A stretch of DNA of 61,857 nucleotides, the filler included, from Candidatus Woesearchaeota archaeon (GTDB lineage: Archaea > Nanobdellota > Nanobdellia > Woesearchaeales > CAZJJJ01), in the NCBI GenBank assembly GCA_046538795.1. It is 7 parts of 7 records of this genome, joined end to end, with 100 filler letters (N's around TTAATTAATTAA, not from the genome) between each part and the next. Parts side by side here need not be neighbours in the genome. Positions count along the whole stretch, not along the records: positions 37,901 to 45,839 come from JBKHIF010000057.1; 6 more parts are not named here. One strand, written 5' to 3'. Made by a program: the position numbers. Positions 42,001 to 45,000 of the stretch are shown here, in pieces; position 1 is the first letter of the stretch; each line of letters opens with the position of its first letter.

Positions 42001-45000
42001 GGAAAAGATTATATCGCCGAATTTAATCGTGATGGAATTAAGCTTAATATTGTTCCTGTTACTGAGTTTATAAATAAGACTGTTTTTGATACAAGAGGAA
42101 ATAAAATAGGTTCTGTGAAGGAATTGAATAAGGCTGGTCCCACAAATCAGATAAATTCACTTATAGTTAATAGAGGTCTTTCCAGAGAAGATGTTGAAAT
42201 TAATGTGAGCGACATAAGAGAGATCGGAAAGAACGTCCATCTTAATATAGCTATAGATGGCACATAATAATATTGAAACTATTATGCTGCCAATGACTGA
42301 ATTGTCTAGGATTATTTTGCTTTCTAAAAAATGGAACTTAAAGGGGAGTTATGCTCTTTGCAGACCCGAAATAGCTACGCAATTTGGGTGCTGAATTTGA
42401 ACAAATTTGTTGCATGTTCAAAGCCCGGCGGACATGAGTGAAACGAATGCTCCGTCCGGGATTATTTTGCTTTCGTAGAAAGGAAAATTCAAGGATAACT
42501 TGTTATCCGCCGATGTTCAAAGCCCGGCGGACATGAGTGAAACGAATGCTCCGTCCGGGATTATTTTGCTTTCGTAGAAAGGAAAATTCAAGGATAACTT
42601 GTTATCCGCCGATGTTCAAAGCCCGGCGGACATGAGTGAAACGAATGCTCCGTCCGGGATTTGAACCCGAGTCTTTGCCTCGAGAGGGCAAAATGATTGG
42701 CCGGACTACACTAACGGAGCATAATTATATTCATGTTGTTTTGATTTACTTTAAAAAGATTTCTGATTAGGTTGTGATTTTTTGATAATTGATTAACTAT
42801 ATAGTAAAGTATATAAGTGTCTTTTTTGAAAATAAATATCATGATCATACTTTTTGCCATACTTTTGTTGATTGTAGGGATGATACTTATCTGGGTCGGT
42901 TCAGACTGGATGACTGATTCACTTATTCCTGTTGCAAAATTTCTTGGTACAAGCTATGTGGCTGTTGCATCAATCCTTGTTTCTATAATGCTTTCCATAC
43001 CTGAGATATTTACGTCAGTATATTCATATTACATGGGTTATCTTGACATATCGTTGGGAGTTATAATAGGATCTATTATGTGTAACATTGGACTTATGAC
43101 AGGGCTTTCTGCCATAATAAAACCATTGCATGTGGATAAAGAGATGGTTGTTCGTGATGGTTTTTTTGCATTGGTTGTATGTGCGATAATTTTTGTTTTT
43201 GGAATTGACTTAACTTATGAAAGTTCTGAAGGAATTGTACTTCTTCTTTTGTTTTTGCCTTATGCTATGAATGTCTGGTTTGCTGAAAAATGGAGAAACC
43301 CAGAAGAACAGAAAAAAAGACTGAAAGAGCTTGAGATTGATCTGGAAGAGATTGGTATGGGTCCTGTAAGGCTAAAACCCGGCATGATAACATTTTTGTT
43401 TGGAACAACAGTTCTTTTAGGAGGATCGTACTTGTTTTCAAAATCTCTTACTATGATTGCAAGCCAGACTACAATACCTGACATGATAATCGGACTTACA
43501 TTAGGAGCAATAGGTCCTTCGGTACCAAATATAATCTCGGCAGTACAGGGAACACTAAAAAATTACAAGACAATTGCGATAGCAGAAACATTTGGTTCAA
43601 ACATATTTACAATGCTTGTCACATTAGGTATCCTGATCACTCTTAGCCCTGTAAAAATAACTCCAAGAATATTATTTTTTGACATAACCTGGATGGGAAT
43701 CATGCACCTTCTTATGATTTCTTTTATCATAAAAGGATTCCTTGCAAAAGAAAGTCCGATAATACGAGTTGAGGGAATAAGCCTTATTCTGTTTTATGTT
43801 GTACTGCTTTTAGTTAATGTATTTTTGTGAAATAACCATAGAACTTGTCCCACTAAAACGTCATTGTACCTTGATTTTAATAGTAACTTCAAAAAGTGGA
43901 GCAATTACTCCAAAAACAGAAGTTAGAGGATTTATCGAAAATAGCATCATTTTGAATAGATCTTATCTCCAAAACACAAAATTTTTATCTGCATATTTTG
44001 GATATATCTTTGTAGCGTCATCAGATTCTATTTGGCTTAGTTCTGACTCCCTGAACTTTGCATCAAAAGTTTTTTTAAAACCATCGACTATAGCTTTCCA
44101 CACATCTTCCTTAGTGATACTTTTATAATCTAACAATCCTGTTACAAGATCATTTACAGTCTTCACTTTTTTTTCAAGGAGTTTCTTATCATCTATTTTC
44201 AGATATTTAAACATTTTTTCAACTTCAGGCTTAAGAAGTATTGTTCCATGATGAAGCAATACATTATCGATTCTTGTCTGTGCATTTCCAGATATTTTCT
44301 TTCCATCTAACAAGATATCATTTATAGGTTTGAATTCTGTTTTAAAACCAATTTTTTCTAATCCTTTGATTATTGCACCACATAATAAGTCGTATGAGGC
44401 TTCAACATCTTTTGGTATTTTTTGATCATCTTCTCGTATGATGAAGCTGTAATTTAACTCGAACTTTGGAGATTTATACACTGCTCCGCCTCCTGTTATT
44501 CTCCTAAATATTTCTATTCCATCTTCGTTACAGACTTTGATATCAAGTTCTTTACTTGTTTCTTGGAAATAACCAAGAGCGACAGCAGGTTTATTCCATG
44601 CATAAAAACGAAGAGTAGGAGGACTTATTCCTATTCTTACAGAATTCATGATGGCTTCTTCTACCGCCATCTTCATGAAAGAATCTTGTTCCTTTTCTAA
44701 AGGGATTACTCTCCATTCATCCATCTGAAAATTCCTCTAGAGCTTCTTTGACATAATTCATATATACAAGTGAAGGACCTCCACCCATAAGGACTGCAAC
44801 CCATGCTATCTCTAAGATTTCTTCTTTTGAGAATCCTTTCTCTAATGCTTTTTTAGTATGAAATGCAATGCATCCTTTACATTGAGCTTTAATTGCAATC
44901 CCTAAAGCGACAGCTTCCTTGATTTTTGATGAGACTTTACCATCCTTTTCTACTGCTTCCATAAAAGAGGCAAAAGTTTTTGTTTGTTCCAATGAATTTT

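What a model noticed while it worked through the whole genome (the two positions that open the first line are those of the whole stretch)
42414..42721. tRNA genes trailed by tandem ~100-nt 'echo' units that end in a copy of the tRNA's own 3' end
At least 12 of the 37 tRNA genes (13 with a more diverged copy behind tRNA-Asp) are followed, always on the 3' side, by one to three tandem units of 92-136 nt, each ending with a copy of the last 15-17 nt of that very tRNA. Example: tRNA-Glu(CUC) C40:4745-4821(-) with two perfect 99-nt units and a third partial one in C40:4514-4744. Units start with the T-rich trailer and hold AT-rich palindromes; in the Glu/Gln and Cys/Asp/Ser units an inverted copy of the same tRNA's T-arm precedes them. 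Inner cores fall into a few families shared between different tRNAs, while the ends always match the local tRNA. This is the signature of tiny non-coding elements that insert at, and copy, tRNA 3' ends, fa [...]
Evidence so far: First seen as a 100%-identical 99-nt tandem repeat (TRF, call 132; sequence, call 134) and as self-BLAST repeats beside tRNA genes. Scan: last 16 nt of each tRNA, <=3 mismatches, 450 nt each side: 12 of 37 with a downstream copy 75-313 nt away (Glu-UUC, Glu-CUC, Gln-UUG, Gln-CUG, Trp, Cys, Ser-GGA, Ser-UGA, Gly-UCC, Thr-GGU, Lys-CUU, Val-UAC), 0 of 37 with an upstream copy; 5 tRNAs have under 50 nt of downstream sequence because the contig ends. Chance expectation about 0.002 per tRNA (own estimate). 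Units printed in calls 135 and 140. Relatives: 5 of 18 tRNAs in G133 (same family) and 1 of 13 in the complete genome G016 have a copy 35-135 nt downstream. Contig-wide scan beyond 460 nt: only [...]
(Added by a program. Inside this text positions count along the whole contig: they may not be those of the stretch shown here. "Call 12" and the like, gene names such as g00115 and contig names such as C1 are that model's own, and its searches are not shown. The text may have been shortened before it was handed on; [...] marks where a part breaks off. The agent that wrote the report below was given it as the finding of a first reader that could run no searches.)

Follow-up and report, generated by a model that had tools for sequence, protein, structure and literature searches.

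The report
Echo repeats behind archaeal tRNA genes
Behind about half of the tRNA genes of this tiny archaeon sit one to three copies of a roughly 100-base non-coding hairpin module that ends in a copy of that tRNA's own last 16 bases; the same arrangement recurs in related archaea, differs in copy number between natural populations, and I found no description of it in print.

Summary
tRNA-Glu(CUC) (window 42646-42720, minus strand) is followed by two identical 99-nt units and an older, diverged third one. Genome-wide, 17 of 32 testable tRNA genes carry a downstream copy of their last 17 nt; 0 of 37 carry one upstream. Each unit holds a T-rich trailer, usually an inverted copy of tRNA nt 53-65, two or three near-perfect palindromes, then a direct copy of nt 58-73. 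A model of one unit family finds the same anatomy behind tRNA genes in 15 other genomes of the order (Nanoarchaeota, DPANN). Cores are nearly identical between different tRNA loci of one genome, while the ends are local. A second metagenome carries this locus without the two young units. The palindromes covary with almost no wobble pairs and no strand bias, so this looks like DNA-level behaviour, not an RNA gene. No reverse transcriptase, Y1, IS110, TnpB or Cas1 gene was found; there is one canonical Xer-type recombinase. Best reading (about 0.45): host-driven break repair and template switching anchored on T-loop sequence, plus unequal recombination. Integrase-driven mini-elements, a functional flank module and an intron link remain open. 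The scan noted this family before on another piece of this genome (e1-6960952).

The parts
42646..42720 (-). tRNA-Glu(CUC) gene, no CCA encoded
   Evidence: Rfam RF00005 55.2 bits, model 1-71. ARAGORN gives 42645-42721.
42547..42645 (-). Echo unit 1 (99 nt). It holds a T-rich trailer and an inverted copy of the T-loop, T-stem and acceptor 3' strand (about 42614-42632). It then holds a palindrome (about 42592-42607) and a second palindrome (about 42564-42586). It ends in a direct copy of tRNA nt 58-73 (42547-42562).
   Evidence: Sequence; TRF; model R1 94.3 bits; sub-part coordinates counted by me.
42448..42546 (-). Echo unit 2, 100% identical to unit 1
42298..42447 (-). Older, diverged unit 3. 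Its first 33 nt (trailer plus inverted T-arm copy) are identical to the young units. Its middle is different, its last hairpin is recognisable, and its 3'-end copy has decayed (6 of 16 mismatches).
   Evidence: R1 match 42298-42446, 30.4 bits, E=5.2e-5; mismatch counts; sequence.
34319..34389 (+). tRNA-Gly(GCC), the second tRNA gene of the window
   Evidence: ARAGORN.
34390..34481 (+). One diverged echo unit behind tRNA-Gly(GCC). It has two palindromes and then an imperfect copy of the tRNA 3' end. The first 11 nt of the trailer repeat after it.
   Evidence: Sequence printed; best 17-nt match has 6 mismatches.

Best explanation
The array is one member of a large family of DNA-level palindromic 'echo' repeats lodged in the 3' flank of tRNA genes in this Nanoarchaeota (DPANN) order. 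A unit has three parts. First comes a locus-specific T-rich trailer, usually followed by an inverted copy of tRNA nt 53-65. Next comes a portable core of two or three near-perfect palindromes. Last comes a direct copy of tRNA nt 58-73. I propose that no element-encoded enzyme moves them. Palindromes are fragile, and breaks or stalled forks in a tRNA flank are repaired by the host using another unit as template. The invading or switching 3' end anchors on T-loop-derived sequence that is common to all tRNAs. That sequence is the inverted T-loop on the left of the core and the A58-onward stretch on the right. Synthesis then re-enters at the tRNA's own T-loop and re-copies nt 58-73 plus the trailer. 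This gives a shared core, locally templated ends and a fixed left boundary at A58. Once two copies exist, unequal homologous recombination or slippage between the repeated 3'-end-plus-trailer segments expands and contracts the array. SHOWN: the anatomy; the A58 boundary; exchange of cores between loci; a copy-number polymorphism; palindromes kept perfect on both strands; absence of the usual transposase and RT genes. INFERRED: breakage, template switching and the host enzymes.
For: (1) Portable core with local ends. Glu-CUC and Glu-UUC units are 93% identical over 75 nt, starting at the inverted T-loop and ending at the A58 stretch, while their trailers differ. In G133 the Pro, Arg and Trp units share an almost identical stretch of about 50 nt between the same two borders. 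(2) The left border of the 3'-end copy is at A58 in 37 of 46 distinct units. (3) At this locus the young units carry a Glu-UUC-type core, but their trailer and inverted T-arm copy are identical to those of the older resident unit, and their 3'-end copy is a perfect copy of the local tRNA. So the flanks were re-copied locally and the core came from elsewhere. (4) Across 38 model hits the 3'-end copy is closer to the local tRNA (6% mismatch per site) than the inverted copy is (14%). This is as expected if each birth re-copies the tRNA end while the inverted copy is passed on. (5) Population variant: run X2 has a contig joining 42413 to 42612 (198 nt skipped) with no differences in the flanks and zero depth on 42528-42608. 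In X1 the unit-specific pieces have about three times the flank depth. (6) Palindromes: 90.3% of cells paired against 60.7% in shuffles. All 20 pairs show two-sided changes, and one-sided (wobble) changes are 0-1 in 14 of the 16 hairpin pairs. The tRNA-sense strand folds no better than the antisense strand (more stable in 12 of 46 units; G-U pairs 97 of 1422 against 110 of 1437). (7) Mosaic arrays: the Cys array is type 1, type 2, type 1. (8) No RVT_1, Y1_Tnp, IS110 DEDD, TnpB or Cas1 match in a 97.6%-complete genome. (9) All 5 species of one genus carry 1-2 units behind tRNA-Leu(UAG), with different cores and with ends that follow each species' own T-loop variant.
Against: No break, no repair intermediate and no naive-to-occupied transition was observed, so first colonisation of a unit-free tRNA is unexplained. 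About 30 of 41 arrays end within 5 nt of the 3'-end copy. That looks like a defined element end and would also suit a site-specific mechanism. A three-step template switch is complex. The persistence of arrays in roughly 1-Mb streamlined genomes across many families may mean selection for a function. The X2 'skip' comes from de Bruijn contigs, which can collapse tandem repeats. Only the zero depth over the unit-specific part argues that it is real. The alignment used for covariation was fitted to the model. The genome is a 97-contig MAG, and several arrays sit at contig ends.
Confidence: 0.45

Rival explanations
1. The units are minimal, cargo-less integrative elements (attP-only circles, like very small cis-mobilisable elements). 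A tyrosine recombinase supplied in trans inserts and excises them at the tRNA T-loop/3' end. That recombinase would be the host Xer-type enzyme or the integrase of a virus or plasmid. Tandem arrays arise by repeated integration.
For: The direct repeat of the tRNA 3' part starts in the T-loop, which is a known sublocation for integrases (Williams 2002, seen only as a reference in PMC9897764). Most arrays end exactly at the 3'-end copy. There is a 0-versus-2-unit polymorphism. In the Cys, G221-Leu and G134-Leu arrays all units share the same departures from the tRNA, as if copied from an element rather than from the gene. On contig C5 a 1.1-kb cassette with three ORFs sits between a tRNA-Gly and a partial 3'-end copy followed by units. 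Six Phage_integrase matches exist in G000, one of them a canonical Xer-like protein.
Against: The units encode nothing. I read only one recombinase (the Xer-like one) as having the catalytic residues, and none lies beside an array. The same core sits behind tRNAs with different 3' ends, which a simple attP x attB crossover cannot produce without breaking the tRNA. There is no symmetric core site at the junction. The repeated segment varies from 16 to about 110 nt. No match in phage or plasmid collections.
Confidence: 0.2
2. The units are related to T-loop bulge-helix-bulge tRNA introns, as descendants or precursors. A hairpin module wedged at the T-loop together with a duplicated 3' exon gives the 'behind the gene' form. 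Deletion between the duplicated parts would turn it into a T-loop intron.
For: The copy begins at A58, one or two nt from the known 59/60 intron site. T-loop introns exist in G000: I read a tRNA-Lys(UUU) on C17 with one. Family-C units (Asp, Ser, Cys, and G002 Glu) contain a direct copy of T-arm nt 49-57, then hairpins, then nt 58-73. That is a T-arm with an insert in its loop. Earlier scan notes report twin-hairpin T-loop intron families in other DPANN genomes, some also 'just behind' tRNA genes. These are leads and were not checked here.
Against: The tRNA upstream is complete (Rfam model 1-71), so nothing needs splicing. By inspection, the 4 nt that should pair with T-loop nt 54-57 directly before a 3-nt bulge are absent in families A and B and misplaced in the others. 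This was an inspection, not a formal BHB scan. No copy of a unit core was found inside any tRNA gene in G000, G133 or G022. There is no sense-strand bias in folding.
Confidence: 0.13
3. The units are functional flank modules kept by selection and homogenised by gene conversion. Candidate roles are termination or insulation of tRNA transcription, a trap for read-through transcripts via the anti-T-arm segment, or a small RNA from either strand.
For: The architecture is conserved across many families of the order despite sequence turnover. Every unit starts with a T-rich tract. Units sit in roughly 1-Mb genomes where junk is scarce. A palindromic motif about 10 bp behind roughly half of the tRNA genes of Methanopyrus kandleri has been proposed as a maturation signal (PMC5217627, passages read).
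Against: Only some tRNAs have units: 17 of 32 in G000, 3 of 20 in G031 and 1 of 13 in G022. A population lacks the two young units without other change. The old unit and several 3'-end copies are decaying. Wobble pairs are nearly absent and there is no strand asymmetry. There is no Rfam match. Expression could not be tested.
Confidence: 0.12
4. Plain replication slippage or tandem duplication of local sequence at each locus, with no exchange between loci.
For: Tandem, often 98-100% identical copies. Arrays can end part-way through a unit. Mirror-image 5' echoes occur upstream.
Against: Cores are shared between loci on different contigs. The left border is the same in 37 of 46 units. Arrays are mosaic. 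The young units at this locus carry a core that the older resident unit lacks.
Confidence: 0.05

Closest known systems
Duplicated tRNA 3' parts left by integrative viruses, plasmids and islands (tyrosine-integrase att sites in tRNA genes). Examples are the 44-bp repeats flanking a 21-kb island in Pyrococcus yayanosii (PMC9897764, passages read) and the recombinase-bearing 1.8-kb insert at tRNA-Thr in Caldiarchaeum (PMC3293823, abstract read).
   Same: A direct copy of the 3' part of the very tRNA lies downstream of the intact gene. tRNA flanks act as hot spots. Populations are heterogeneous.
   Different: Here the 'element' is 60-175 nt, non-coding and tandem. The same core sits behind different tRNAs with locally matching ends. 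No integrase is linked, and the repeat starts at A58 rather than covering about 40-50 nt.
Small palindromic repeats and MITEs of prokaryotes: REP/BIME, Correia, RPE and similar (PMC3733652, search listing only; the rest recalled)
   Same: Non-coding, about 100 nt, palindrome-rich, multi-copy, intergenic, sometimes clustered in tandem.
   Different: These units are tied to one kind of site (the tRNA 3' flank) and carry a direct and an inverted copy of the neighbouring gene's end. No RAYT/Y1 or other transposase was found. There is no fixed target duplication.
Non-canonical T-loop (59/60) BHB introns and 'intron transposition' between tRNA genes in Archaea (PMC3239211, abstract in the search listing; Fujishima 2010 recalled, not read)
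   Same: Related short structured inserts shared between different tRNA genes of one genome. The junction is in the T-loop.
   Different: The units lie behind a complete tRNA, show no BHB by inspection, and behave like double-stranded palindromes.
Palindromic motif about 10 bp downstream of roughly half of the tRNA genes of Methanopyrus kandleri (PMC5217627, passages read)
   Same: A conserved palindrome directly behind many but not all tRNA genes of an archaeon.
   Different: It is a single 19-nt motif. No copy of the tRNA end and no tandem units are described in the passages I read.
Integron attC sites and cassette arrays, also reported in Archaea including Nanoarchaeota (PMC9668308, search listing only; attC features recalled)
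   Same: Recombination-site-like units of 57-141 nt with a closing stem and branched hairpins. They are homogeneous within a genome, different between genomes, and arranged in arrays. One locus (C5) carries a small gene cassette.
   Different: No integron integrase or attI was identified. The junctions do not lie at a GTT-type core site, and the arrays are anchored at tRNA genes.

Membership tests
tRNA-targeting integrative element (tyrosine integrase, attL/attR) | Element flanked by a direct repeat consisting of the 3' part of the target tRNA | tested here: met
tRNA-targeting integrative element (tyrosine integrase, attL/attR) | Integrase encoded by the element or adjacent to it | tested here: not met
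   The units are 60-175 nt and non-coding. The six Phage_integrase matches lie on C95, C63 and C21, none beside an array. Supply in trans is not excluded.
tRNA-targeting integrative element (tyrosine integrase, attL/attR) | Empty and occupied alleles differing by exactly the element | tested here: inconclusive
   The X2 contig skips 198 nt (two units) with identical flanks. It still keeps the older unit, and the evidence comes from contigs, not reads.
MITE / REP-like palindromic repeat | Terminal inverted repeats | tested here: met
   An inverted copy of nt 53-65 near the 5' side and a direct copy of nt 58-73 at the 3' end form an inverted pair in 29 of 42 arrays, at <=3 of 13 mismatches. This pair is absent in family B.
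MITE / REP-like palindromic repeat | Fixed-length target-site duplication | tested here: not met
   The repeated flank after the last unit ranges from 0 to 95 nt.
MITE / REP-like palindromic repeat | Cognate transposase family in the genome (Y1/RAYT, IS110, TnpB-associated) | tested here: not met
   No match in G000, which is 97.6% complete.
BHB tRNA intron (T-loop) | Interrupts the tRNA, so the mature sequence needs splicing | tested here: not met
   The complete tRNA gives a full-length Rfam match 1-71 upstream of the units.
BHB tRNA intron (T-loop) | Bulge-helix-bulge motif: a 4-bp helix between nt 54-57 and the insert's 3' end, flanked by 3-nt bulges | tested here: inconclusive
   Not seen by inspection of the units. 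No formal BHB search or cleavage assay was run.
Casposon / CRISPR-like integration (Cas1) | Cas1-family integrase present | tested here: not met
   No PF01867 match.
Retroelement primed by a tRNA 3' end | Reverse transcriptase present | tested here: not met
   No PF00078 match. The copies are followed by the genomic trailer, not by CCA, except where CCA is gene-encoded.
Integron cassette array | Integron integrase and attI next to the array | not tested
   Only the general Phage_integrase family was searched. No IntI-specific model was run.
Known RNA family (Rfam 15) | Match to a curated covariance model | tested here: not met
   Only tRNA matches, plus two chance-level hits, in 15 loci and in the window region.

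The most novel reading that the evidence does not exclude
The echo units may be the DNA-level intermediates through which these archaea gain and lose T-loop tRNA introns. In this reading a portable palindromic module enters at T-loop position 57/58-59/60 together with a freshly copied 3' exon, which keeps the tRNA intact. Recombination between the duplicated T-arm parts then converts the 'behind the gene' form into an in-gene intron, or the reverse. If so, this order offers living examples of every stage of archaeal tRNA gene disruption, produced without any element-encoded enzyme.
Probability: 0.15. Interest if true: 0.85.

Novelty: new variant of a known kind. Interest (0 to 1): 0.7.

Why it matters
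tRNA genes are the classic landing sites of mobile DNA, and archaeal tRNA genes are famously interrupted, split and permuted, yet how these disruptions arise is unknown. This is an abundant, still-active family behind half of the tRNA genes in one genome and present in many families of an order. It couples a portable palindromic core to locally templated copies of the tRNA's own T-arm and 3' end. It may show a host-driven way in which repeats colonise and reshape tRNA loci. It explains why assemblies of these genomes break at tRNA genes: 5 of the 37 ARAGORN tRNA genes in G000 have under 50 nt of downstream sequence before the contig ends. It can also mislead tRNA annotation through partial copies. 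If the intron link holds, a long-standing question about the origin of archaeal tRNA introns becomes testable in the many complete genomes now available for this phylum.

Tried and rejected
- RNA gene: there is no Rfam match, and the sense strand folds no better than the antisense.
- Expression: no RNA holder was listed among the public runs, so expression stays untested.
- Retro-copying of the tRNA end up to a modified A58: I considered this because of the border, but dropped it. There is no RT, and the copies are followed by the trailer, not CCA.
- Casposon-like, IS110-like and IS200/605-like mobility: the enzymes were not found.
- Idea that the inverted T-arm copy is kept more faithfully than the direct copy. 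This was suggested by one species. It was rejected: 1 case against 10 the other way among 38 hits.
- Idea that unit-free tRNAs natively carry the inverted T-arm copy: rejected. Of the 14 G000 tRNAs scored as unit-free, 1 has a match at <=3 of 13 mismatches, and I read that one as chance.
- Orthologous empty site for tRNA-Glu(CUC) in the sister genus: the locus is occupied there too, by a different unit family.
- Phage and plasmid collections: no match.
- BLAST of the Glu unit in the six other genomes of the family: no match.
- Metagenome contig scan with the neighbouring protein: no relative returned.
- Genome-contig scan: one relative, used only for its taxon label.
- Heuristic script to find T-loop-intron tRNAs: it gave only false positives and was abandoned.
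- Degenerate DNA-pattern scan of the genome collection: it was not run. The distribution outside the order therefore rests on two model searches of 151 genomes each. In the second, every genome with a hit was in the same order.
- Literature: searches found no description of such units. Subscription journals and bioRxiv supplements were not visible.
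Full report
**What is there**

The window is a chain of contigs from a 1.34-Mb, 35% G+C, 97-contig genome (G000, 97.6% complete). The finding lies on contig C40.

On the minus strand, tRNA-Glu(CUC) occupies 42646-42720 (Rfam; ARAGORN gives one base more on each side). No CCA is encoded. TRF reports 42414-42661 as a 99-nt period, 2.5 copies, 100% matches.

Read in the tRNA's direction, the discriminator base is followed by two identical 99-nt units. Each unit holds:
- a T-rich 13-nt trailer;
- a 19-nt imperfect inverted copy of the tRNA's T-loop, T-stem 3' strand and part of the acceptor strand;
- a 16-nt palindrome;
- a 23-nt palindrome;
- a perfect copy of the last 16 nt of the tRNA (A58 to the discriminator).

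After unit 2 the first 33 nt of the unit appear again. My covariance model shows that these 33 nt head a third, older unit (42298-42447; E=5e-5). Its middle differs, and its 3'-end copy has 6 of 16 mismatches.

**Is it more than chance**

- With the last 16 nt and <=3 mismatches, 12 of 37 ARAGORN tRNAs have a copy within 600 nt downstream and 0 of 37 upstream. Five tRNAs have fewer than 50 nt of downstream sequence.
- With the best ungapped match of the last 17 nt within 400 nt, 17 of 32 evaluable tRNAs have <=5 mismatches downstream. None of 37 upstream flanks does better than 6.
- BLAST of the units found further arrays behind Arg-GCG, Arg-CCU and Pro-GGG. The Pro-GGG array runs off contig C96 and continues on C89. 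Another array sits behind Ser-GCU, whose gene ends at the end of contig C12 and whose unit lies on the end of contig C13. A diverged one lies behind tRNA-Gly(GCC) in this window.
- A genome-wide search adds a copy of a tRNA-Gly 3' end 1.24 kb downstream on C5.

**Anatomy across units**

I collected 46 distinct units from G000 and from loci of relatives.
- Lengths are 60-174 nt, mostly 81-136.
- The copy of the tRNA end begins at T-loop A58 in 37 of 46 (identity run of 16-19 nt, the range reflecting ARAGORN's end and gene-encoded CCA).
- Among 42 arrays, 29 have one unit, 11 have two and 2 have three.
- An inverted copy of nt 53-65 with <=3 of 13 mismatches is present in 29 of 42.
- In 30 of 41 arrays the array stops within 5 nt after the last 3'-end copy. 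In 11 it runs on for 7-95 nt into another unit. That script's tolerance undercounts the Trp array, and one listed 'array' is really a neighbouring tRNA.

In G000 the cores fall into three families by my reading:
- A: Glu x2, Gln x2, Trp, Ser-GCU;
- B: Lys, Val, Gly-UCC, Arg x2, Pro. This family has no inverted T-arm copy;
- C: Cys, Asp, Ser x2, Thr. Here the inverted T-arm copy is followed by a direct copy of nt 49-57.

Mirror-image copies of tRNA 5' ends occur upstream of 2 of 37 tRNAs in G000 and 2 of 32 elsewhere (sequences). In G000 no 5' copy lies downstream and no 3' copy lies upstream (best matches at least 7 and at least 6 mismatches of 17). In the other loci the best such matches have 5 and 4 mismatches.

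**Relatives**

A model of family A (alignment A1, model R1) was run over two samples.
- In 151 genomes of the order it hit 16 genomes, G000 included, at E<=0.01, in many different families.
- In a second sample of 151 genomes it hit 10 at E<=0.001. All hits were in the same order, and 5 of 10 genomes of one family were hit.

Of the 25 hits outside G000 in the first search:
- 19 lie directly behind a tRNA gene (Gln, Phe, Glu, Leu, Pro, Gly, Arg, Ala, Trp, Ser, Val) with the same anatomy;
- 2 could not be judged;
- 4 weak ones are in coding-like sequence.

All 11 hits in G000 are in tRNA 3' flanks.

Further comparisons:
- In one genus, all five species examined have one or two units behind tRNA-Leu(UAG). 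Their cores and lengths differ, and the copied ends follow each species' own T-loop variant.
- The sister genus has the orthologous tRNA-Glu(CUC) locus occupied by one 118-nt unit of another family, plus two upstream 5' echoes.
- Two complete genomes without model hits still show units of other families behind 1 of 13 and 3 of 20 tRNAs.
- A relative's record is titled as a Nanoarchaeota MAG. That the order is the Woesearchaeales-type one is my guess.

**What moves and what stays**

Pairwise alignments show that units behind different tRNAs of one genome share a core. The core starts at the inverted T-loop and ends at the A58 stretch.
- Glu-CUC against Glu-UUC: 93% identity over 75 nt.
- Val against Pro: 93% over 45 nt.
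- In G133 the Pro, Arg and Trp units share an almost identical stretch of about 50 nt.

Trailers, and the tRNA-specific parts of both copies, are local.

At the present locus the two young units have a Glu-UUC-type core that the older resident unit lacks. Their trailer and inverted T-arm copy, however, are letter-for-letter those of the old unit, and their 3'-end copy is a perfect copy of the local tRNA. Over 38 model hits the direct copy differs from the local tRNA at 6% of sites and the inverted copy at 14%. Arrays can be mosaic: the Cys array is type 1, type 2, type 1.

**Population variation**

Four public metagenome runs hold the stretch, and all are kept as contigs.
- In X1, unit-specific pieces have depth about 32 against 9-11 for the flanks.
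- In X2, from another study, one contig joins 42413 to 42612. It skips 198 nt (two units) and has no differences over 264 and 89 flanking bases. No contig covers 42528-42608.

So one population has the tRNA plus only the old unit. De Bruijn assemblers can collapse tandem repeats, so this needs reads. The missing unit-specific sequence argues that it is real.

**DNA or RNA**

On 40 distinct model-aligned units:
- 90.3% of cells pair, against 60.7% in shuffles;
- all 20 pairs show two-sided changes;
- slid controls fall to 33-55%.

This alignment was fitted to the model, which leans towards the structure. One-sided (wobble) changes are almost absent in the two hairpins. The tRNA-sense strand is the more stable in only 12 of 46 units, and G-U pairs are equally rare on both strands. 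Rfam has no match. This is the behaviour of double-stranded palindromes that are kept perfect, not of a strand-specific RNA.

**Enzymes**

G000 has no match to RVT_1, Y1_Tnp, the IS110 DEDD domain, the TnpB zinc ribbon or Cas1. It has six Phage_integrase matches in four ORFs. One is a canonical Xer-like protein. By my reading, the others (two with tandem domains) lack the usual catalytic residues. None lies beside an array.

**Most likely mechanism**

I think the units are propagated by the host's own repair and replication.
1. Palindromes provoke breaks or fork stalls in tRNA flanks.
2. The broken or nascent 3' end, ending in the inverted T-loop, pairs with the same motif in a unit at another tRNA.
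3. It copies that unit's core up to the A58 stretch.
4. It switches back to the best match available, which is the T-loop of the local tRNA. It then re-copies nt 58-73 and the trailer before rejoining.

This yields shared cores, locally exact 3'-end copies, inherited (and therefore less exact) inverted copies, and a constant A58 border. Unequal recombination between the repeated segments then changes copy number.

The anatomy, the exchange of cores, the border, the polymorphism and the DNA-level character are shown. Breakage, switching and the enzymes are inferred. How a unit-free tRNA is first colonised is not explained. I put this reading at about 0.45.

**Rivals**

- Integrase-driven mini-elements (0.2) fit the sharp 3' border and the arrays whose units share departures from the tRNA. 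They fail to explain one core behind tRNAs with different ends, and no linked integrase was found.
- A link to T-loop introns (0.13) is suggested by the A58 border, by family-C units that look like a T-arm with an insert, and by earlier scan notes (unchecked). I saw no BHB and no in-gene copy.
- A selected flank function (0.12) is suggested by the conservation of architecture. The patchy presence, the decay and the unit-less population argue against it.
- Plain slippage (0.05) is contradicted by the shared cores.

**Known or new**

Full-text searches and the passages I read describe three related things:
- kilobase islands flanked by tRNA fragments (PMC9897764);
- a recombinase-bearing insert at a tRNA gene (PMC3293823, abstract);
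- a short palindrome behind M. kandleri tRNA genes (PMC5217627).

None describes about 100-nt tandem units carrying direct and inverted copies of the neighbouring tRNA's end. The scan itself noted the family earlier on another contig of this genome (e1-6960952). I rate this a new variant of known kinds (palindromic repeats; tRNA-end duplications), with a real chance of a new mechanism.

Noticed in passing
window 34515-34654 (+), 38965-39083 (-), 40848-40933 (-); at least 25 further copies on other G000 contigs: A dispersed non-coding repeat of about 150 nt, with 28 or more copies at 85-95% identity. It is not tied to tRNA genes. Its AT-rich hairpin resembles the middle hairpin of the family-C echo units, so hairpin modules may be shared between the two repeat systems.
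   Followed up: partly
G000 C53:6741-6870 and C27:144-270; L061 about 1193-1410 (minus strand): Mirror-image '5' echoes': copies of the first 17-40 nt of a tRNA (with some leader) lie 99-129 nt upstream of the gene. They were seen in 2 of 37 tRNAs in G000 and 2 of 32 in other loci, separated from the gene by hairpin-rich sequence.
   Followed up: partly
G000 C5:4250-5666 (minus strand): A tRNA-Gly is followed by a 1.1-kb insert encoding a 72-aa protein, a 136-aa PIN-domain-like protein and a 95-aa protein. After the insert come a partial copy of the tRNA 3' end, a family-C unit and a family-A-like unit. This is a possible cargo-bearing relative of the units.
   Followed up: partly
L037/L050 (G048:C15) and L054 (G048:C32): In the Val arrays of this genome, the copy of the tRNA 3' end inside each unit is itself interrupted. 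The interruption is a two-hairpin insert (62 nt in the C15 array, shorter at C32) between the T-stem and acceptor parts.
   Followed up: no
G022 (complete, 1.3 Mb) versus G031 (complete, 0.8 Mb): Only 14 Rfam tRNA matches in G022 against 38 in G031. Many tRNA genes of G022 may be disrupted beyond standard detection.
   Followed up: no
G000 C63:4585-5649 (-), C21:5819-6856 (+), C21:10127-10645 (+): Proteins made of one or two Phage_integrase-like domains that, by my reading, lack the usual catalytic His/Arg/Tyr residues. They are possible DNA-binding relatives of recombinases.
   Followed up: no
G000 C17, about 4030-4190 (+): A tRNA-Lys(UUU)-like gene with two introns (anticodon loop and T-loop) and an encoded CCA. 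ARAGORN and the Rfam search both missed it. It lies just downstream of the Asp echo unit.
   Followed up: no
run X2, pieces laid on window 42448-42521: The contig carrying the Glu-UUC-type unit has depth about 30 against about 7 for single-copy flanks. The copy number at that locus may be higher in this population than in G000.
   Followed up: no
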